From a virus (Duplodnaviria; Heunggongvirae; Uroviricota; Caudoviricetes): a stretch of 64,000 bases of DNA. This document shows, piece after piece, positions 25,802-38,250 of the stretch. Positions within the stretch are counted from its first letter, which is position 1. Every line of letters starts with the position of its first letter. The position numbers and the translations under genes are program-made. Below the pieces are notes generated by a model, which had not been told where the DNA came from, made no database searches, and was given only the letters and a program-made list of their open reading frames with translations. Where the stretch lies: positions 322,948 to 386,947 of the IMG/VR virus record IMGVR_UViG_3300021979_000001. One strand, written 5' to 3'.

Positions 25802-26407
25802 TTACATAACACCCATATTACGTAATACCAGTTCTTGGTCGTCGGATATTTCGATATGCTGGGTGATGTTCAATTCGCTCAACTGTTCATTGAGTGTTCG
25901 ACGCTTTGCTTTGAACCCGGCAATCTGCTCGTCTAATGCGTCCTGTTCCTCGGGCGTCATCAGATTGATCGTCACATATGAGGTGTGACTGTTACCAGCT
26001 TTCATCATCTGATTTGCTGCGGTAACATCATCAATCAAATACTGAATGCTATTGTTTTTGTTTTCCAACCAGTTATCGAAATTGTAATTTATTGTATTCC
26101 CTGACAAAAGTTCGATGCAGCGCGACAGTTCCGCCATGTCTGTCATGATGGTATTGATACCAGATGTATGATTGGCATGACCGATCTGCTTGCGAATATT
26201 ATACATCAGTTGAACAATATTCACCAAATCTTCGGTTTTATCGTGCATGGTATTGACAGCATCGTCCAGTCGTCGAGTCAAATTTTCTTCGATTTTACTG
26301 TCCTCACCACCAAGTGTATATCGGATTGTGCGGTCAATCGTCATTTTGTTGATGATTTCTTGCAGGTCCACGACAAGCATGGATGCGCGTTTGATTGAAA
26401 CTTTCAT
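25802..26407 (-). CDS. Coiled-coil hypothetical protein
   Basis: 201 aa, AGGA RBS. Confidence 0.7.
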   Translation of the reverse strand: MKVSIKRASMLVVDLQEIINKMTIDRTIRYTLGGEDSKIEENLTRRLDDAVNTMHDKTEDLVNIVQLMYNIRKQIGHANHTSGINTIMTDMAELSRCIELLSGNTINYNFDNWLENKNNSIQYLIDDVTAANQMMKAGNSHTSYVTINLMTPEEQDALDEQIAGFKAKRRTLNEQLSELNITQHIEISDDQELVLRNMGVM

Positions 26408-26515
26408 GATTTTCCTAATATTTGATAAAGTATGGCCCGTGCCCGTTAATGCACGATGCCAAAAAACATTCAGCGGAACTGGTATGTTAATTAATATGCC
26501 AGTGATATGTCAATA

Positions 26516-27661
26516 TTAATTATTTGCCAACTTTAATTTTGCAAGAACCATTTGCGCATGGTCACGAAAAAGCAGAACTACCTTTTGTATATTATGATTA
26601 TTATGTTTAATGGATGAACATAGTATAATCATATCTACTTTTTTTAATTCATATGGAAAGGTTGGTTTTCGACAAAACGTCGTATATTGTCGAGCATAAA
26701 TACCAAATTTCGATGAAATTATTTTAAAATCAAAATCGAACAGGTCTGTTATATAGTCGCGAGTTTTATCGGCAAGGATTGGTGTGATCATTATTGGAAC
26801 ATTAATGTTATGTCCTATGCTATTGCCAAATCGTTCATAATTAATAAATGGCGACATATCTACATCGTAACCAAAATCGGTGTCGCACCGGTATGGAAAA
26901 TCATTATTAACTTCATCCAACGATGCTATGGGCAGCAATTCACGCTTTAATATATCGTATACATGCTGATGCTGACAAAAAAGTTTGCCTTCTGTAAATA
27001 CCACACGTTCATTCTGTATTCCATATTCTTGCATAATTGCACGAATATGGGCCTTCCCGGTGATCATGCTGTATCGGGCATCAAAAACAGGAATATTTAA
27101 GAAACCATAAAAATCCGATAAATCGGAAACGCGCATAAATTCAGGGTTATGGCGATCAATACAAATAAGCCCAGGTGTGTTTTTCAAATCCTTAACATCA
27201 TTGTCCCGAGGGAAACAATCATAGTTTAAGAACTTGGTGTTATAAACCTTGATGCCAGACGGAATAACGTTTGGATCATTAATAAAAGCCCATTGAACGT
27301 TGTCATCTGACTGGGAACAATACCACATCAGAAATGAAATAATAGAATTGTTACTATCATTAAATGGTATATTATAAAATTCGGTATCTTTAATGTTGGT
27401 ATGCATAGATAGCATATCAACTATAAAGGAAACATTTCTTGTCGAATATTTAGATTGAATTTCAATTTTGGTTTTTTCCCGCGTTTTGACATACAGATCG
27501 TTAATATCAGGATGATTACAAGCAATATGGATTACACCACATAAAGTTGGGTCCATCTGCCCATGATCGGAAAAATGATAAATGAATGGCAACTGACTAC
27601 GAACAGTATCGTAAGCATGATATTTGACTGGGTAAGGATGTTTTCGATTGTTGAACATCAA
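26516..27661 (-). CDS. Hypothetical protein, family A
   Basis: TNIKDT.F..FLMWYCSQ; ends FRDHAQMVLAKL. Confidence 0.8.
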   Translation of the reverse strand: MMFNNRKHPYPVKYHAYDTVRSQLPFIYHFSDHGQMDPTLCGVIHIACNHPDINDLYVKTREKTKIEIQSKYSTRNVSFIVDMLSMHTNIKDTEFYNIPFNDSNNSIISFLMWYCSQSDDNVQWAFINDPNVIPSGIKVYNTKFLNYDCFPRDNDVKDLKNTPGLICIDRHNPEFMRVSDLSDFYGFLNIPVFDARYSMITGKAHIRAIMQEYGIQNERVVFTEGKLFCQHQHVYDILKRELLPIASLDEVNNDFPYRCDTDFGYDVDMSPFINYERFGNSIGHNINVPIMITPILADKTRDYITDLFDFDFKIISSKFGIYARQYTTFCRKPTFPYELKKVDMIILCSSIKHNNHNIQKVVLLFRDHAQMVLAKLKLANN

Positions 27662-27798
27662 TTCATATCCACGATATTTATATGCTGTTTAAAGGCCATT
27701 TAACGCATCATAGAGGCGGTCTAAGTTAACAGGCAGCGTTACCCCAAATTATTATTAACGGCTAATACCTGGCCGCAAAACACCCCCTACGCTGAACA

Positions 27799-28935
27799 TT
27801 AATCTGAATTAAAATCAACATGTAGTTTAGCAAGGACCAGTTGAGATTCATCTTTAAACAATAAATAACGCATCCCTGCCTTAATTAAATACATTTCGAT
27901 CATGTCCACCGATTGTAATTGGTGTAAAAACACCGGTTTTTTATAAAATACGGTTAGACCTCGTGATATTGGATCATCAATAGGAATAAATAGTGTGTTC
28001 AACCCAAGATTATTTTGCAAAAGCGAGTGATATTTAATGTCTCCCGATTCAAGCAAATATGGACTGGGTGCCAACTTCCCAAACGTTGCAAACGTTTCAC
28101 TTTGTGAAATCGCAATGATTTCTGGATAGTCATACTGATTATAGTTAGTCCGATATTTGATATGATATGGAAATAGTGCCGATACATCGTCTACTGAACT
28201 TATCGGTGTTAGTGTTTTCTTGAAAAAATCATAAACATGCTTTTTTTCACAGTATAATTCTAATCCTGTAAATACAAGACGTTCGTTGATCATATCATTG
28301 TCACGCAGAAATTTTGCAATCATGTGTGCCGCAGTTGACAGATTGTCTTCGGCATCAATCCAGGGCAGGGAAATGCTATTATAAAATTCCGACAAATCCG
28401 ACACCCGCTTGCGAGGGTTATGTTTTGGATCAATAACGACGAACCCAGGAGTATCGGCATAATCTTGAATGTCATTATTATGCTTATATTCGGAATCGGA
28501 ATAAAATAAAAAATAAGATATGTCAATCTTACCAGTGATATTATCGTCAATATTATCCGGGTATTTGTTACATATATACCACTGTAGGTTATCAAATGAT
28601 TGTGCGCATAGCCACATCATAAATGGAATACAATTGTCAGTTGCGATACCATTTAATGAATCACCGTGAAATACGGTCTGTTTTATATTCGTCGTTAGTG
28701 ATAATACATCTTTGTTAAACATATGGAAATGGAACGATGTTGATTGGATTTCAACCTTTGTTTTTATCTTTGACTGCACATACAGGTTATGTAGGTTATG
28801 GTGATTGCACACTATATACACGGTTTCGATCATAGAATTACCGTAAACTTTGTATATATACTTGGATAATGCGGAATCATCATACGGGCTGTAAATAGCC
28901 GGGTATGGCGTTGTCTTGTTATTATATTTGATCAT
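27799..28935 (-). CDS. Hypothetical protein, family A (paralog of 26516)
   Basis: TNIKQT.F..FMMWLCAQ, RVSDLS.FY; ends FKDESQLVLAKL. Confidence 0.8.
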   Translation of the reverse strand: MIKYNNKTTPYPAIYSPYDDSALSKYIYKVYGNSMIETVYIVCNHHNLHNLYVQSKIKTKVEIQSTSFHFHMFNKDVLSLTTNIKQTVFHGDSLNGIATDNCIPFMMWLCAQSFDNLQWYICNKYPDNIDDNITGKIDISYFLFYSDSEYKHNNDIQDYADTPGFVVIDPKHNPRKRVSDLSEFYNSISLPWIDAEDNLSTAAHMIAKFLRDNDMINERLVFTGLELYCEKKHVYDFFKKTLTPISSVDDVSALFPYHIKYRTNYNQYDYPEIIAISQSETFATFGKLAPSPYLLESGDIKYHSLLQNNLGLNTLFIPIDDPISRGLTVFYKKPVFLHQLQSVDMIEMYLIKAGMRYLLFKDESQLVLAKLHVDFNSD

Positions 28936-29501
28936 TACTGCAACCCTGACATTATCAATTTAAACATTACTCGTGTTTCGTCCGTTTTAAAATAGAACGT
29001 GTTTGTCATCGTGTGGGTTGGATATTTCAAAACACAATCGATATTACCGATCATTTTTTTTGGTATAAAAAATCGTTCATTGTTGGTAAACGGCAATATC
29101 GATATGTTGTTCAACGCTTTAAGAGCCTTAAACAAAAAATTATCCACTGGTTTGGTAGTGGTGTATAATAAATTGTAAGGATTATCCTTTGGTAAAACCC
29201 AATCGTCCTGGATAATTTCGTTAACCAAATGGGCATATTTCTTATCAACAAAACCATGTGCCCCGTCGGCATATATCTTAATGCGGTGTTCACGTGCTAA
29301 CTTGTTGAGTTTTGCTGTTGTGATATTTATGTTAGCCGAAAAATCCAGAAACAGTTTATCAAACATCCGGTTATACGATTTAAGCATATATGGAAACGAA
29401 ATATATTGCATATCCTGTTTTATTGCATCGTCGTTAAAGTGTTGATCATTATTAGCATATTGCATACTACTGCCAAATAATTTCAGTTCGCCCGATTGCA
29501 T
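28935..29501 (-). CDS. Hypothetical protein, family A (C-terminal half only)
   Basis: Ends FYFKTDETRVMFKL. Confidence 0.65.
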   Translation of the reverse strand: MQSGELKLFGSSMQYANNDQHFNDDAIKQDMQYISFPYMLKSYNRMFDKLFLDFSANINITTAKLNKLAREHRIKIYADGAHGFVDKKYAHLVNEIIQDDWVLPKDNPYNLLYTTTKPVDNFLFKALKALNNISILPFTNNERFFIPKKMIGNIDCVLKYPTHTMTNTFYFKTDETRVMFKLIMSGLQ

Positions 29502-29663
29502 AAAACCACCCTGTGCATATCTGTTTGGATTTGATTAGTTAATCATAAAATGGTCCGTGATGGAAATGTTTTTTTCAAAATCAATTTGGTAACGCGGGAT
29601 CATAACAACAAAAGCCATAATAACAGAATGATTATGTTTCACTCTGTCATTATGGCTTTTTAA

Positions 29664-29738
29664 TGGCTCCGGCAGTAGGATTCGAACCTACGGCCCCCTG
29701 ATTAACAGTCAGGTGTTCTACCGCTGAACTATACCGGA
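29664..29738 (-). tRNA. tRNA-Asn(GUU)
   Basis: Loop CT-GTT-AA, cloverleaf, CCA. Confidence 0.95.
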
Positions 29739-29744
29739 ATATAA

Positions 29745-29821
29745 TGGTGGCGGGAGTAGGATTTGAACCTACGATCTCCGGGATATGAACCCGACGAGTT
29801 ACCAAACTTCTCCATCCCGCA
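29745..29821 (-). tRNA. Initiator tRNA-fMet(CAU)
   Basis: CAT anticodon, GGG:CCC anticodon stem, 1:72 mismatch. Confidence 0.9.
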
Positions 29822-29831
29822 TCAATAAGAA

Positions 29832-30705
29832 ACCCGTGAGATTACCGGGGTTTATAATGGGCCTTTCCGAACATTACCGATAACTTGCGATTATCGTTCT
29901 TTCGTTATCCATGCCACGTGATTGCAGCATATCCCATTAGTGTCGCCTTTTTTAGTGAGTGGCAGTTCTCACATCATTGAATTGTCCTCGACCGATTATC
30001 CCATACCGACACTTATAAATGCCGTTCGCGTTGCTACACGCTATACCAGATTACTGATCAATAGTCCTTAGATTTGCGATCTTTAGACTACCCATTTTCT
30101 CATAGAGAATGGGATTAGACACCTTTCCAATTCAACTGGGACAGTCTTTTGCGTTTTTTGCGGAATCGAACCGCCGAAGCAGATTAGAAGTCTGTTGCCA
30201 ACCATTGGCTATTGAAAAAATCACTGTCATGCGCTGTCCCAAGTTGCTTCATCACCGCTTTACAGTGACAAAATACAACGCATCACGTTCCGTTCGTCTT
30301 GCTAGACTACTAAGACTATATTTTGGATATTGTCAGTTCCCCACCAAAATCCTCATATATGCAAACCGCTCTTAGGTGCAACCCTTCGAACTTATTTTGC
30401 TATCCATTATGTTTCATGATGAACGATTTAGCGTTGTATAGATGATCTGCTACAATCATTTAGCAATCAGCATACGCCATCTTGCCTATCTTTTCAGCCA
30501 TACATTCGTTTTCTCACTAGACACCACGTTAATGATGTCACCTTGTGGGCAACACTGGACCTGCATAGATGTGCCAAAATAAATTGGTGAAAGTGCGTGA
30601 CTACTCTCTTTCAGTCTATTACTAGACTATATACTAATGACGCTATGCCGCCATAGAGAACCACACACAAGGAATGTCATAGACAAACCATACATGGTGG
30701 CTCAA
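29832..30705 (-). ncRNA. Giant structured RNA, GOLLD-like
   Basis: ~870 nt with no credible ORF, many hairpins with GNRA-type loops on the minus strand, internal tRNA-like domain, directly upstream of tRNAs; 3' part resembles GOLLD from memory. Confidence 0.7.
30152..30222 (-). ncRNA. tRNA-Arg(UCU)-like domain embedded in the giant RNA
   Basis: GCCA-ATGGT-TGGC D-like arm, CAGA-CTTCTAA-TCTG anticodon arm, GCGG-TTCGATT-CCGC T-arm, weak A/T acceptor, no CCA. Confidence 0.6.
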
Positions 30706-30724
30706 AACTTTTTAGTCTGAATGC

Positions 30725-30804
30725 TTCAAAAGGCACAGTTGCTATACCAGGGGGGACATTGGCGATTACGGGGGGAGTAAATCGCCGCAACTGTGCCCAT
30801 TGAA
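30725..30804 (-). ncRNA. Small stem-loop RNA with two C-rich single-stranded segments
   Basis: GGCACAGTTGC/GCAACTGTGCC stem enclosing GGCGATT-TACTCCCCCCGT-AATCGCC and TGTCCCCCCTGG. Confidence 0.55.
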
Positions 30805-30820
30805 ACACTCAAACAGTTCA

Positions 30821-30840
30821 TATTCAATTGTCAAAGAACT
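30821..30840 (-). promoter_or_regulatory. boxA-like antitermination element
   Basis: GTTCTTTGACAATTGAATA resembles rRNA leader boxA (TGCTCTTTAACA). Confidence 0.65.
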
Positions 30841-30891
30841 TAACAAGAATTTCAGTTTTGTTCGAAACCGTCTTCCTTGTCGTTGAAGATA

Positions 30892-30960
30892 GTTATAGCC
30901 TGCTACGAAACTACTGTCAACATCTTATTTCAATCTTTTTTTGATTTTTTTGATTTTTTT
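30892..30960 (-). promoter_or_regulatory. Strong sigma70 promoter with UP-like A-tracts
   Basis: TTGACA-17 nt-TATAAC preceded by AAAAAAATC repeats. Confidence 0.8.
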
Positions 30961-31516
30961 ATTCAAGAACACTGATCACCGGCACCGCATCATATGCTAG
31001 CTGTAACAAACAAATGTCAGTCATCCGTTCACACGATAGATAAAAATGATTGCGTTTGTGCCCATAAAAAACATATCGGCCAAGCAACTGCTCATTCAAC
31101 ACACTGATAACCATCTTGTGTTTTTTTGGGGCAACGATAGGTTTGGGTAAATTGCTATTATCCATGATATTAGTATATTTTATACTCACGTTATATAATT
31201 TGCCATTCTCATTTTTATCCCAACCTGGGAAATTTTGATTGACAAGGGCGGTATATATGTAACTTGTCGGGTATATGGTTTGCTCAAATACATTTGGTAA
31301 CCACAATTGATTATCATCCGCTACCGTAGGTGATGTATTATCAATCACGGTTTGTGATTTAGTGCTATAAATAAACGTCGTGTCAAATGGCAACCATAGC
31401 TGATCTGGATCGTATACGTTATCTAATATAATAATACCGCCTACAGAGGTAATATCATAAATGCGACGGGATTTTCCGTCCAATTTGATCAATGAAATTG
31501 TGGTTTTCATTGCCAT
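30959..31516 (-). CDS. Family B protein (paired QLxLxF-like motifs)
   Basis: YDPDQLWLPF, NQLWLPN, FPGWDKNENG. Confidence 0.8.
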   Translation of the reverse strand: MAMKTTISLIKLDGKSRRIYDITSVGGIIILDNVYDPDQLWLPFDTTFIYSTKSQTVIDNTSPTVADDNQLWLPNVFEQTIYPTSYIYTALVNQNFPGWDKNENGKLYNVSIKYTNIMDNSNLPKPIVAPKKHKMVISVLNEQLLGRYVFYGHKRNHFYLSCERMTDICLLQLAYDAVPVISVLE

Positions 31517-32061
31517 TCATCCAAGTTTTTTTCCAAATCGCCGTTGCTGTCTATTAACGTAACCATCACATATGCATCATAATGCGAGAATACCGCAACA
31601 GTGACGCAACTGTTTGTGGTATGATTTAATAGCATATATCGCCCAGGGGCGTTATCAGAAAACCATTTTCTAAAAAGGTCAACATACATGGCAGAAAGAT
31701 GTATCTCTGCCTGATATAGTATTCCGTTACTATCGCGATCCCAACACGGATAATTATGTTGTGTTAAATCAAATTGCTCACATCCGATAACTTGGCAAAA
31801 CTCTGAAAAAGGTAATTGATACTGTTGTGCATTATCACAATAATTATACATTTGTTTAGTTAGTGGTTTGATACGATGCTCCCTATTTTTTCGGCTCATA
31901 CGACCCTCCCTATTTTTTCGGCTCACATGCCGCTCATATTCACCGTCGTTATTATAGGTATCCGTCTCAACTACCAACTTATTAACATAAATAAATGTTG
32001 TTTCAAATGGTAACCATAGCTGACCTGGATCATATACGTGATCCAATAGTAACACAACCAT
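31507..32061 (-). CDS. Family B protein
   Basis: YDPGQLWLPF, QYQLPF, YPCWDRDSNG; internal 27-bp tandem duplication. Confidence 0.8.
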   Translation of the reverse strand: MVVLLLDHVYDPGQLWLPFETTFIYVNKLVVETDTYNNDGEYERHVSRKNREGRMSRKNREHRIKPLTKQMYNYCDNAQQYQLPFSEFCQVIGCEQFDLTQHNYPCWDRDSNGILYQAEIHLSAMYVDLFRKWFSDNAPGRYMLLNHTTNSCVTVAVFSHYDAYVMVTLIDSNGDLEKNLDEWQ

Positions 32062-32111
32062 TCGACGATACCTTCGTTATATTGGGTCTGATGTTATTGA
32101 TGTTATTGATG

Positions 32112-32708
32112 TTAATCAATTTCTGTTGTAGTGCAATACTCACTTAATACTTTCTTCAATACACCACTGCGTTCCAACAGTTGAACCATCATATACGTTT
32201 CTCTACGCGAGAACATGATTATGACATCATTTTGTTTGGTCTTGTTATGCGTGTTAATATAATATCGCCCTGATGCATTCACGACAAACCAGTATTTAAA
32301 CAACATGTAATCAGCACCAATGTTTATGGTCATCTGATATATATTGTCATCATCGTCCCGATCCCAACACGGATAATCACACCGCTTCAAATCGTAGTAT
32401 TCGGTATCGGAAATTTGACAAAATTCATCAAACCGCAATTGATATTGCTGGTTATTAGAATAAGAATACATAATATAAGTTAATGGTCTAATACGGGCGG
32501 TCGTCTGCGAAGGGCGTATATTATCCCGATAATATGATCTCAAATAAGACTTTTTGATCGGATAAAAAATAGTATGACCAAAATCTAACCACAATTGATT
32601 GTGGTCATACTCGTGCTGCAATGTAATCGATTTTGGTGCATATGCCATATATTCGTATTCAATCGAGATATATTCATTAATGTCCAATGCAGATTTCATA
32701 ACACTCAC
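32112..32708 (-). CDS. Family B protein
   Basis: YDHNQLWLDF, QYQLRF, YPCWDRD. Confidence 0.8.
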   Translation of the reverse strand: MSVMKSALDINEYISIEYEYMAYAPKSITLQHEYDHNQLWLDFGHTIFYPIKKSYLRSYYRDNIRPSQTTARIRPLTYIMYSYSNNQQYQLRFDEFCQISDTEYYDLKRCDYPCWDRDDDDNIYQMTINIGADYMLFKYWFVVNASGRYYINTHNKTKQNDVIIMFSRRETYMMVQLLERSGVLKKVLSEYCTTTEID

Positions 32709-32733
32709 TTCACCATTTTACCAAATGACATTG

Positions 32734-33372
32734 TTATTGGTCGTTACCGTATTCCGTAATGATTTCAATTATTTCCCCACCCCGAGATAACATATCTACC
32801 AAAACGAACGCGGCTTGATGTGAAAAATAACATATGTGTTTATCATTGTATTTAGTCAAATAAAACCTGCCTGGCGCATGATCAATAACCCATTTCTTAA
32901 ATTGGGTTAAATGCCGGTTGTCATTAAACGGCATTGTTATATTAAATATGTCGCCATTATTATCCCGATCCCATACGGGATAGTCATTTTTAGCAAGGAG
33001 CATGAACTCATAAAATTCCAACTCGCGAAATTCGTCAAATGGCAACAGATATTGTGGTTCAGTAGAATAACAATACATTCCCTTGTTTGTTGGGGTTATC
33101 AGATTATCATTTTGCTTCGGTTTAATATTCGAATTATGATACCGGTAAAACCGCTTTTTATATGAGTCGTCCAGTCGGTAGATTACGGCTACACCAAAGT
33201 CTAACCATAATTGATTATGATCATACCGATTATGCAATGTAATTGATTGTGGGATGAAAGCAACATGTTCGTCTTCAATCTCATAATCTCTAGGTTCGTT
33301 ATGACATATAATATCATCAAAAACCATGTCAGTTATATTGACGTATTCATGTATATCCAAAGCAGGTTTCAT
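32734..33372 (-). CDS. Family B protein
   Basis: YDHNQLWLDF, QYLLPF, YPVWDRDNNG. Confidence 0.8.
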   Translation of the reverse strand: MKPALDIHEYVNITDMVFDDIICHNEPRDYEIEDEHVAFIPQSITLHNRYDHNQLWLDFGVAVIYRLDDSYKKRFYRYHNSNIKPKQNDNLITPTNKGMYCYSTEPQYLLPFDEFRELEFYEFMLLAKNDYPVWDRDNNGDIFNITMPFNDNRHLTQFKKWVIDHAPGRFYLTKYNDKHICYFSHQAAFVLVDMLSRGGEIIEIITEYGNDQ

Positions 33373-33950
33373 AATGCAATCTTTACCATAATCATATCAC
33401 TGTATTTTTCGAACACGACGGTTTTTTGGGATTTCAGACTCCCATATTTACCATAACATACCCGGTCACATATAGAAAACAACCGGCTTGCGCCGCCATC
33501 AACCGATTTAAACGAAATGCCATAATAGTTACCATTTTCATCCTTTTCAAACAACGGAAAACCCACGATTGACATATTTGTTATGACCTTCGTGGATAGT
33601 CGCCGCCCGGTATCGAACGGTAGCAAATATTGATTTTGGTCTAATCCAATATTCGGATATAAACTATGGTGTTCTGGTGACAATTTTATTTTTTTATTGA
33701 TTTTGGTTTTCATTGATGCCAGTTTATTGTTTGCATTCCTGGCTTCGGATTTGGCTTTATTTATTTCTGCCCGCTTTTCTTTTGCGGTTAATGCTTTAGT
33801 GGAGGTAGATGCCTCAAAAATAGTCACATGACCAAAATCAAACCACATCTGGTTAATGTCATATGTATGGTTCAACCGAACGATTTTATTCGAACCGCAA
33901 GCAGTTGCAATATCGCGACTTATCATAATCGGATATTTATGCATCAGCAT
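33369..33950 (-). CDS. Family B protein
   Basis: YDINQMWFDF, QYLLPF, FPLFEKDENG. Confidence 0.8.
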   Translation of the reverse strand: MLMHKYPIMISRDIATACGSNKIVRLNHTYDINQMWFDFGHVTIFEASTSTKALTAKEKRAEINKAKSEARNANNKLASMKTKINKKIKLSPEHHSLYPNIGLDQNQYLLPFDTGRRLSTKVITNMSIVGFPLFEKDENGNYYGISFKSVDGGASRLFSICDRVCYGKYGSLKSQKTVVFEKYSDMIMVKIAL

Positions 33951-34476
33951 TAGTATCTCCCATCATTGATTTTATCTTCAACCAATCATTTTTGCACTTA
34001 AAGATAATTGTTGTCAACGATTTAAGTTTCATATTGCGCAAACTTAGTTTTTTATATTTGTTCGGTTTTTTACCAGGGTAATGTGAAAAATTATGTCGGC
34101 AATGTTCATGCGCTAATTTTTCAGTTACATTATTATTAGGTAACCAATAAAGTTCCCCTTGCGCACGATGGTCCCAACCTGGGAAACCTTTTGCCGAAAT
34201 GTCCCGCAATACTGTTTTATGACAAATCCGATATTCATAAAATGGCAATACGCCTTGATCATCAACCTGATATTTTTTGATATTTAAGGTTGGCGGCGGA
34301 CCATTGTGTTTGGGTGTTGTTGTTGTGTCATCGGTGGTCGTGTCATTAAGCAAGAAAAGAAAAACATGACCAAAATCAAACCATAACTGTTCTTTGGGAA
34401 AATAGCTGTCAAAATAAACGACATTCCCTGTCACATAATAATTGTTTTTGTCGCTGTTTAAATCTAATATCATCAC
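33937..34476 (-). CDS. Family B protein
   Basis: EQLWFDF, QGVLPF, FPGWDH. Confidence 0.8.
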   Translation of the reverse strand: MMILDLNSDKNNYYVTGNVVYFDSYFPKEQLWFDFGHVFLFLLNDTTTDDTTTTPKHNGPPPTLNIKKYQVDDQGVLPFYEYRICHKTVLRDISAKGFPGWDHRAQGELYWLPNNNVTEKLAHEHCRHNFSHYPGKKPNKYKKLSLRNMKLKSLTTIIFKCKNDWLKIKSMMGDTNADA

Positions 34477-37109: not shown

Positions 37110-37183
37110 TGGTAGCGGGTCCGGGCGACGACCCCGGCTAATCAACGTTATGAGCATTGATCCTTTCCCAGCGAAGCCCCGCC
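37110..37183 (-). tRNA. Atypical tRNA-Met(CAU)
   Basis: TCAATG-CTCATAA-CGTTGA arm, T-loop GTCGTCG, irregular D-arm, CCA. Confidence 0.65.
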
Positions 37184-37384: not shown

Positions 37385-37632
37385 GTCGATCTATACAGAT
37401 CGAAAAGGGGGTTGCGGACGCGTTGTATCGGGGACTTGCACCCAAGACTCCAATCAATTCATAAGACCGACTTAACTTATGAATAACGTGGATTCGAACC
37501 ACATTCTCTCTACCGGCATGCCATAAATGGTGGTAGGCAACTTACATACAACACTTACCCTCACGTTATATCAATTCTTGATTATGACTTAAACGTTATC
37601 ATCATAATCCATCCTATCAACTTCGATCAGGT
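37385..37632 (-). ncRNA. Putative multibranch RNA with two T-loop hairpins inside the tRNA array
   Basis: GTGTTGTAT/ATACAACGC closing stem; TGTGG-TTCGAAT-CCACG and GGG-TGCAAGT-CCC; ATTCATAAG/CTTATGAAT hairpin. Confidence 0.55.
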
Positions 37633-38165: not shown

Positions 38166-38250
38166 TGGTGGGAAGCCGTAGAATCGAACTACTCCCCTTT
38201 CGGGAACGGATTTACAGTCCGCGTGCTAAAACCATTAACTTTGACTTCCC
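38166..38250 (-). tRNA. tRNA-Tyr(GUA)
   Basis: Loop CT-GTA-AA, variable arm CCC-GAAA-GGG, irregular D-arm. Confidence 0.85.

What the first reader, a model, noticed from the sequence alone, without database searches (positions are those of the whole stretch)
29832..30705. Giant GOLLD-like RNA heading a tRNA transcript
Seen: ~870 nt without a credible ORF in a gene-dense genome. Hairpins give purine-rich or GNRA loops on the minus strand (AGTCTA-GTAA-TAGACT, AGAT-CGCAA-ATCT, GATAA-TCGCAAG-TTATC, GTCT-AGCA-AGAC). The RNA ends ..GGAAAGGCCC..GTAATCTCACGGG about 10 nt before tRNA-fMet and tRNA-Asn. Known: GOLLD RNAs are ~800-nt phage-associated RNAs near tRNAs, sometimes contain tRNAs, form multimeric cages and have no known function. 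The family assignment is from recollection; if it fails, this is a new large RNA class.
Basis: partly seen in the sequence, partly recalled or inferred. Interest (0 to 1): 0.85.

Follow-up and report, generated by a model that had tools for sequence, protein, structure and literature searches.

The report
GOLLD phage RNA with tRNA mimic
This gene-free stretch of a jumbo phage encodes a member of GOLLD, a known family of giant RNAs that build RNA-only cages of unknown function; it carries a built-in tRNA look-alike that probably cannot be charged, and in related phages that look-alike's anticodon loop changes much faster than the rest of the RNA.

Summary
Confirmed: a full-length GOLLD RNA, window 30652-29833 (minus strand, 820 nt), in a 457-kb T4-like jumbo phage, host probably alphaproteobacterial. 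Rfam GOLLD scores 177.9 bits (cut-off 150); the 5' half keeps the helices of related GOLLDs through compensatory changes. It is a divergent new member, not a new class. (1) A tRNA-Arg(UCU)-shaped module in the linker, with no proper acceptor stem or CCA; its anticodon arm equals that of the phage's own tRNA-Arg. (2) An rRNA-operon-type leader: sigma70 promoter, hairpin, boxA matching a rhizobial 16S leader at 18/19. (3) A long leader stem with two six-C loops, unexplained. Linker tRNAs are published, and this scan has already noted GOLLDs with pseudo-tRNAs and with boxA leaders on other DNA. New here, but from relatives: in five of six close GOLLD pairs the differences cluster in the module's anticodon loop (phiCbK versus CcrKarma: 5 of 10), suggesting conflict with host anticodon-reading proteins. 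Cultured phages (phiCbK group, Phosso, MD18) carry this GOLLD type, so this is testable. Expression was not testable.

The parts
30892..30920 (-). sigma70-type promoter (TTGACA, 17 nt, TATAAC); start site inferred near 30885
   Evidence: Read from sequence; one of 3 strict matches in the genome, 2 of them before stable-RNA genes. The consensus scanner did not list it.
30842..30881 (-). boxB-like hairpin directly 5' of boxA
   Evidence: Fold z -2.4, 6 of 200 shuffles as good; same position as the small hairpin of rrn leaders (PMC13753749).
30821..30839 (-). boxA-like antitermination signal
   Evidence: 18/19 identical to the boxA-like word in the 16S leader of Phyllobacterium, core shared with Sphingobium; the 12-nt core occurs once in 457 kb.
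30715..30814 (-). long leader stem with two six-C loops (30775-30770, 30755-30750); function unknown
   Evidence: Core folds at z -6.7; no credible Rfam match; a run of 4 or more C, mostly in a loop, in 15 of 22 leaders of another GOLLD group against 6% in shuffles.
   Evidence: z -4.6; lies 5' of the family start motif.
29833..30652 (-). GOLLD RNA, 820 nt
   Evidence: Rfam 177.9 bits for 30286-29833; start motif shared with about 100 GOLLD loci; relatives 798-856 nt.
30287..30652 (-). GOLLD 5' domain
   Evidence: Sole hit in the genome of a profile built without it, E 3.3e-5; 63 of 98 consensus pairs kept on direct projection, null 34.6 +/- 4.3, 28 by two-sided change.
30138..30240 (-). 7-bp long-range helix (30240-30234 with 30144-30138) that brackets the linker
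   Evidence: Paired in 18 of 18 sequences, 4 of 7 pairs change on both sides.
30151..30222 (-). tRNA-Arg(UCU)-shaped module in the linker; anticodon arm 30198-30180; no CCA
   Evidence: ARAGORN only at lowered threshold; acceptor 3/7 pairs in register, T stem 4/5, AAA in place of CCA; 19-nt identity with the phage's own tRNA-Arg.
29833..30150 (-). GOLLD conserved 3' domain
   Evidence: Rfam alignment; 85 consensus pairs, 59 with two-sided change in 15 sequences including this one; 57-60% identity to nearest group.
29745..29821 (-). tRNA-Met(CAT), initiator type, with CCA
29664..29738 (-). tRNA-Asn(GTT)
29607..29658 (-). long hairpin with U tail, probable terminator of the unit
   Evidence: Terminator scan; z -9.6.

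Best explanation
SHOWN (0.97): this is a GOLLD RNA with both domains intact and a tRNA-shaped module in its linker. INFERRED (0.7): host RNA polymerase transcribes one ~1.3-kb stable-RNA unit (leader, GOLLD, tRNA-fMet, tRNA-Asn); boxA loads the host NusB/S10-type rRNA complex, which protects the untranslated transcript from termination and aids folding; the 5' cut of tRNA-fMet frees the GOLLD 3' end. INFERRED from solved relatives (0.8): the RNA assembles into a 12-14-chain cage with the linker inside. COMMITTED MECHANISM for the module (0.45): it is an unchargeable tRNA mimic whose shape (D and T arms) is needed, while its anticodon loop is in conflict with host anticodon-reading proteins, most likely defence anticodon nucleases. 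The loop is swapped either to escape cutting (0.25) or to act as bait that spares real tRNAs (0.2). The net purpose would be to keep translation running during infection.
For: Rfam over cut-off. 5' profile hit and pair projection. Covariation in both domains. D and T stems 100% paired with two-sided changes across 18 modules, yet CCA at or near its place in only 2 of 18 relatives. Anticodon identity varies: Lys, Leu, Arg, odd loops. Differences cluster in the anticodon loop in 5 of 6 close pairs: phiCbK/Karma 5 of 10, L358/L366 3 of 5, L255/L267 6 of 49. Here the arm equals the phage's own tRNA-Arg arm. boxA-like word in 22/26 and 5/15 leader clusters (one of the 5 lies in a promoter spacer) against 2.7% background; 18/19 match to a rhizobial rrn leader; no phage NusB or NusG. 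Cage, interior linker and ribosome pull-down are from 10.1101/2024.12.08.627333; phage tRNAs escaping anticodon nucleases from PMC11455837.
Against: No function is known for any GOLLD. A closed cage would hide the linker from proteins. One close pair (L347/L354) has no loop change, the pairs are not all independent, and a loop swap may be one recombination event, so the binomial p values overstate the case. In four relatives the module shares at most 11 nt with the cognate tRNA, so the 19-nt match is special to this phage. Some GOLLDs have no module at all (L245, L265, L350, the whole L001-type group). boxA is absent from most of the nearest group and from Phosso, so it is not required by GOLLD.
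Confidence: 0.85

Rival explanations
1. The cage stores a real tRNA that is cut out and used later (the published 'inhibited storage' idea).
For: Proposed for Mycolicibacterium tRNA-Phe in PMC12990946; L361 and L337 keep 6-7 acceptor pairs and a CCA.
Against: Here only 3/7 acceptor pairs, a 5-nt D loop lacking the A20 that arginyl-tRNA synthetase reads (established knowledge), no CCA, and a complete tRNA-Arg(UCU) elsewhere in the genome. The mycobacterial pseudo-tRNA was not detected as a separate RNA (PMC6582537).
Confidence: 0.07
2. The module is a processing or docking handle: its elbow recruits RNase P or binds the ribosome like an uncharged tRNA, and the loop sequence is simply free to drift.
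For: D-loop GG and T loop kept in all modules; ribosomes bound GOLLD in pull-downs (cited in 10.1101/2024.12.08.627333); degenerate loops exist (6- and 8-nt loops, G33).
Against: Free drift does not explain 5 of 10 or 3 of 5 differences in one 8-nt window when no other window has more than 1; many loops are perfect 7-nt Lys, Arg or Leu loops.
Confidence: 0.25
3. The module is a decaying passenger: a tRNA gene that fell into the tolerant linker and is refreshed by recombination with nearby tRNA genes, with no function.
For: GOLLDs without it exist; this copy is the most eroded; recombination with tRNA genes would also give clustered loop changes and the 19-nt match.
Against: Compensatory changes in D, anticodon and T stems and a conserved short A/U-rich pseudo-acceptor across distant phages; present in 18 of 20 relatives and in Phosso, MD18 and the phiCbK group.
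Confidence: 0.2
4. A new class of large RNA unrelated to GOLLD, or a protein-coding region.
For: No BLAST match of the 3' domain in 50,697 phage records; long branch in the tree.
Against: Full-length Rfam match over cut-off; 5' homology; stops in all frames.
Confidence: 0.01

Closest known systems
GOLLD RNA (Rfam RF02032); solved cages env-38 (833 nt, 14-mer, PDB 9MEE) and Streptococcus agalactiae (700 nt, 12-mer, 9L0R), per PMC12990946
   Same: Conserved 3' domain over cut-off, variable 5' domain, variable linker, ~820 nt, phage-borne, next to tRNA genes; tRNAs or pseudo-tRNAs in the linker are already reported (10.1101/2024.12.08.627333, PMC6582537).
   Different: Divergent (57-60% identity to nearest group); module is more eroded than in relatives yet has an anticodon arm identical to the phage's own tRNA-Arg; unusually long (about 230 nt) structured leader.
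GOLLD of cultured alphaproteobacterial phages: Sinorhizobium phage Phosso, Phaeobacter phage MD18, Caulobacter phiCbK group
   Same: All over Rfam cut-off (165-187 bits) with a tRNA-like module at the same place; Phosso, the nearest cultured phage (capsid 74%), also has an Arg(UCU) loop.
   Different: Phosso has no boxA, starts about 60 nt after its promoter and has its own terminator; anticodon stems differ.
Bacterial rrn leader (boxB-boxA; NusA/B/E/G, SuhB, S4 complex) and the T7 early boxA
   Same: Promoter, hairpin, boxA order; 18/19 match to a rhizobial 16S leader; phage use of host boxA is known for T7 (PMC3709561).
   Different: Cargo is GOLLD plus tRNAs, not rRNA; no boxC identified; function not tested.
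6C RNA and cuckoo RNAs (C-rich-loop small RNAs; from memory)
   Same: Leader stem shows two six-C loops.
   Different: No Rfam match even at E 10; loops sit on one branched stem inside a leader. A lead only.

Membership tests
GOLLD (RF02032) | Conserved 3' domain scoring above the Rfam gathering threshold | tested here: met
   177.9 bits against 150, model 1-416
GOLLD (RF02032) | Ornate 5' domain homologous to other GOLLDs | tested here: met
   Profile hit E 3.3e-5; 63/98 pairs, 28 two-sided. The relatives were partly picked by a shared 19-nt start motif. Compared with relatives, not with the env-38 sequence itself.
GOLLD (RF02032) | Length about 700-850 nt with a variable linker that may hold a tRNA | tested here: met
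   820 nt; module at 30222-30151
GOLLD (RF02032) | Structure supported by covariation | tested here: met
GOLLD (RF02032) | Phage context near tRNA genes | tested here: met
   Virus record with gp23 capsid, tRNA cluster
GOLLD (RF02032) | Expressed as an abundant RNA during infection | not testable with these tools
GOLLD (RF02032) | Self-assembly into a 10-14-chain cage | not testable with these tools
   Inferred from solved members; individual bridges were not mapped onto this sequence
ROOL (RF03087) | Match to the ROOL model | tested here: not met
   No match in the genome (no positive control rang) and none in the window scan
functional tRNA-Arg | 7-bp acceptor stem and CCA end | tested here: not met
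   3/7 pairs in register; AAA at 74-76
functional tRNA-Arg | Anticodon arm with 7-nt UCU loop, D arm and T loop | tested here: met
   D loop is short and lacks A20
rrn-type antitermination leader | boxA matching the host group's rrn boxA, behind a promoter and hairpin | tested here: met
   host group itself inferred
rrn-type antitermination leader | NusB/S10 binding and termination-resistant transcription | not testable with these tools
   bench test needed

The most novel reading that the evidence does not exclude
The GOLLD linker module is an anticodon-display cassette: a fixed tRNA-shaped scaffold whose anticodon loop is swapped under selection from host tRNA-cutting defences, making the GOLLD cage a multivalent counter-defence device (bait for, or escape from, anticodon nucleases) that is produced in bulk like rRNA.
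Probability: 0.25. Interest if true: 0.75.

Novelty: new member of a known kind. Interest (0 to 1): 0.36.

Why it matters
As a sequence it adds one divergent GOLLD to a family with hundreds of members, which is ordinary. The follow-up matters more than the locus: the function of GOLLD has been open since 2009, and the comparison gives a specific handle (an anticodon loop that changes faster than the rest of the RNA) together with cultured phage-host pairs, including two natural alleles in the phiCbK group of Caulobacter phages, in which it can be tested. If the loop is selected by host anticodon nucleases, GOLLD would be a phage counter-defence RNA. It also suggests that several GenBank tRNA annotations in these phages are parts of GOLLD, not working tRNAs.

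Tried and rejected
BLAST of the region or its 3' domain against phages and plasmids found only tRNAs or nothing. Flanking ORFs have no Pfam match and one weak PHROG hit; the upstream ORF has no relative in IMG/VR. Pattern scans were mis-set or too loose and gave chance hits. Weinberg 2009 and Morgado 2020 were not readable (the first id was from memory), and the Nature/NSMB papers by other groups and the Chen thesis were not checked, so prior mention of boxA or loop variation there cannot be excluded. One search used a mistyped structure; one search replaces it. My early idea that boxA is universal for GOLLD was rejected (absent in 10-11 of 15 clusters of the nearest group; L286 and L337 hits lie in a promoter spacer). 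My early note that no module has CCA was wrong (L361, L337, L022 do). The idea that the module always copies the phage's own tRNA was rejected (true only here). Pairing of the leader C runs with a G run in the 5' domain was considered but shows no covariation. A profile from the L001-type 5' domains did not find this RNA. No covariance model of the 5' domain was built (alignment over the column limit).

Full report
Observation. The stretch has no credible ORF, and 30653-29833 folds better than all 20 dinucleotide shuffles (z -3.3). It ends 11 nt before an initiator-type tRNA-Met, followed after 6 nt by tRNA-Asn and a long terminator hairpin.

Genome. The window lies in a 457,165-bp virus record with a gp23-type capsid closest to Sinorhizobium phage Phosso (74%) and Agrobacterium phage Atu_ph07 (64.5%). 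Its SmpB has named best hits in Novosphingobium, Maricaulis and Caulobacterales, and its tmRNA reads as the permuted type (my reading). An alphaproteobacterial host is therefore inferred.

Identity. Rfam GOLLD matches 30286-29833 over the whole model at 177.9 bits, cut-off 150; it is the single copy. The Rfam model begins at the last hairpin before the linker, so I tested the 5' half separately. Pattern scans gave about 100 GOLLD loci with a shared start motif that in the window lies at 30652. They fall into two groups. One group (798-856 nt; 7 of 7 full loci scored 192-198 bits) resembles the window. A profile of its 5' domains, built without the window, finds one place in the genome, this one (E 3.3e-5). 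That group's 5' consensus has 98 pairs, 73 with two-sided changes. Projected on the window, 63 pair (shuffle 34.6 +/- 4.3, maximum 51), 28 of them by change on both sides, and most of the rest are recovered with shifts of up to 3 nt. The 3' domain has 85 pairs, 59 with two-sided changes. The window is a long branch, 57-60% identical to this group.

The linker module. Between the two strands of a 7-bp helix that pairs in 18 of 18 sequences with 4 covarying pairs sits a tRNA-shaped element, 30222-30151, found only at a lowered ARAGORN threshold. It has D, anticodon (UCU) and T arms, but only 3 of 7 acceptor pairs in register, a short D loop and no CCA. The phage has a complete tRNA-Arg(UCU) elsewhere, and 19 nt covering the whole anticodon arm are identical between the two, while the D stem differs on both sides. 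None of 8 other Arg(UCU) arms in my loci has this sequence, though a few unrelated phage tRNA-Arg genes do. Such a module is present in 18 of 20 relatives, with D and T stems fully paired, a short A/U-rich pseudo-acceptor, and CCA in only two. Linker tRNAs and pseudo-tRNAs are published (10.1101/2024.12.08.627333; PMC6582537; PMC12990946), and the linker lies inside the cage.

What the relatives add. The anticodon varies (Lys, Leu, Arg, Gly, and loops of 6 or 8 nt). In close pairs the differences concentrate in that loop: phiCbK against CcrKarma 5 of 10 over 851 nt, L358 against L366 3 of 5, with no other 8-nt window above 1 in either pair; L255/L267 6 of 49, L360/L366 4 of 50, L339/L342 5 of 114; L347/L354 0 of 38. 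The pairs are few, not all independent, and each swap may be one event. Still, a fixed scaffold with a changing loop is what conflict with an anticodon-reading protein would give; phage tRNAs are known to escape host anticodon nucleases by loop changes (PMC11455837). Recombination with neighbouring tRNA genes is the plain alternative. I found no paper or earlier scan note on this pattern. Phosso, MD18 and the phiCbK group carry GOLLD over cut-off with the module; in the phiCbK group 5 named phages have the Lys loop and 8 the Gly loop.

The leader. A near-consensus sigma70 promoter at 30920-30892 is followed by a hairpin and a boxA-like word. That word matches the 16S leader of Phyllobacterium at 18 of 19 positions and shares its core with Sphingobium, agrees with published boxA consensus sequences (PMC13753749), and its core occurs once in the genome. 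Other stable-RNA promoters of this phage have none, and the phage has no NusB or NusG. A boxA-like word precedes 22 of 26 leader clusters of the other GOLLD group and 5 of 15 of the nearer group (one by chance in a spacer), against 2.7% of background windows; Phosso lacks it. The host complex loaded at boxA blocks termination and chaperones folding (PMC8632103), and T7 uses a boxA (PMC3709561). No held paper links boxA to GOLLD, but earlier notes of this scan did so for Bacteroidota phages. Between boxA and GOLLD lies a 100-nt stem with two six-C loops (z -6.7), without Rfam match; 15 of 22 leaders of the other group have a similar C run. It is unexplained.

Mechanism. Shown: family membership, anatomy, covariation. 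Inferred: one 1.3-kb transcript made by host polymerase in rRNA mode, processed at the tRNAs, folding into two domains that assemble into a cage as in solved members. My committed reading of the module is an unchargeable tRNA mimic whose shape is required and whose loop is shaped by host anticodon-reading defences (0.45, split between escape and bait), ahead of a processing or ribosome handle (0.25), a passenger (0.2) and tRNA storage (0.07). The main objection is that a closed cage hides the linker.

Verdict. Interest 0.36: low for the locus itself, raised by the loop pattern and by cultured systems in which the open question of GOLLD function can be tested.

Noticed in passing
window 37110-37183, 37478-37562, 38166-38250 (minus): Three more tRNA-like genes missed by default ARAGORN and Rfam: a CAT tRNA with odd D and T loops, a degenerate His-like element, and a plausible tRNA-Tyr(GTA) with CCA.
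   Followed up: partly
window about 34773-34728 (minus): A second copy of the 3' half of tRNA-Pro(TGG), about 420 nt downstream of the gene, like an integration-site duplication.
   Followed up: no
   Followed up: no
G000 C1 160209-160554 and 200103-200501: The phage encodes a tmRNA that reads as permuted, with its own sigma70-type promoter, and an SmpB.
   Followed up: partly
L390 and L391 418-736 (minus), L389 1900-2315: In phiCbK and CcrKarma GOLLD is back to back with a permuted tmRNA; in MD18 one follows it.
   Followed up: no
L389 1285-1358, L390 and L391 1310-1381: GenBank annotates tRNA-Arg, tRNA-Gly and tRNA-Lys that are in fact the CCA-less modules inside GOLLD; GOLLD itself is not annotated.
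   Followed up: yes
L022 1-844: Chimeric contig joining a eukaryotic 5.8S rRNA fragment to a GOLLD with a pseudo-tRNA (6-nt loop); may come from an RNA assembly.
   Followed up: partly
L001, L009, L037 upstream of tRNA-Met: In these phages a boxA-like word also precedes the tRNA-Met upstream of GOLLD, so the signal serves stable-RNA units in general.
   Followed up: no
L291 leader, also L026, L227, L243, L303: The leader loop reads like the anti-Shine-Dalgarno end of 16S rRNA rather than a plain C run.
   Followed up: no
window 25802-34476: Ten flanking ORFs of 179-381 aa have no Pfam match; only 32061-31507 has a weak RusA-like PHROG hit, E 0.003.
   Followed up: partly
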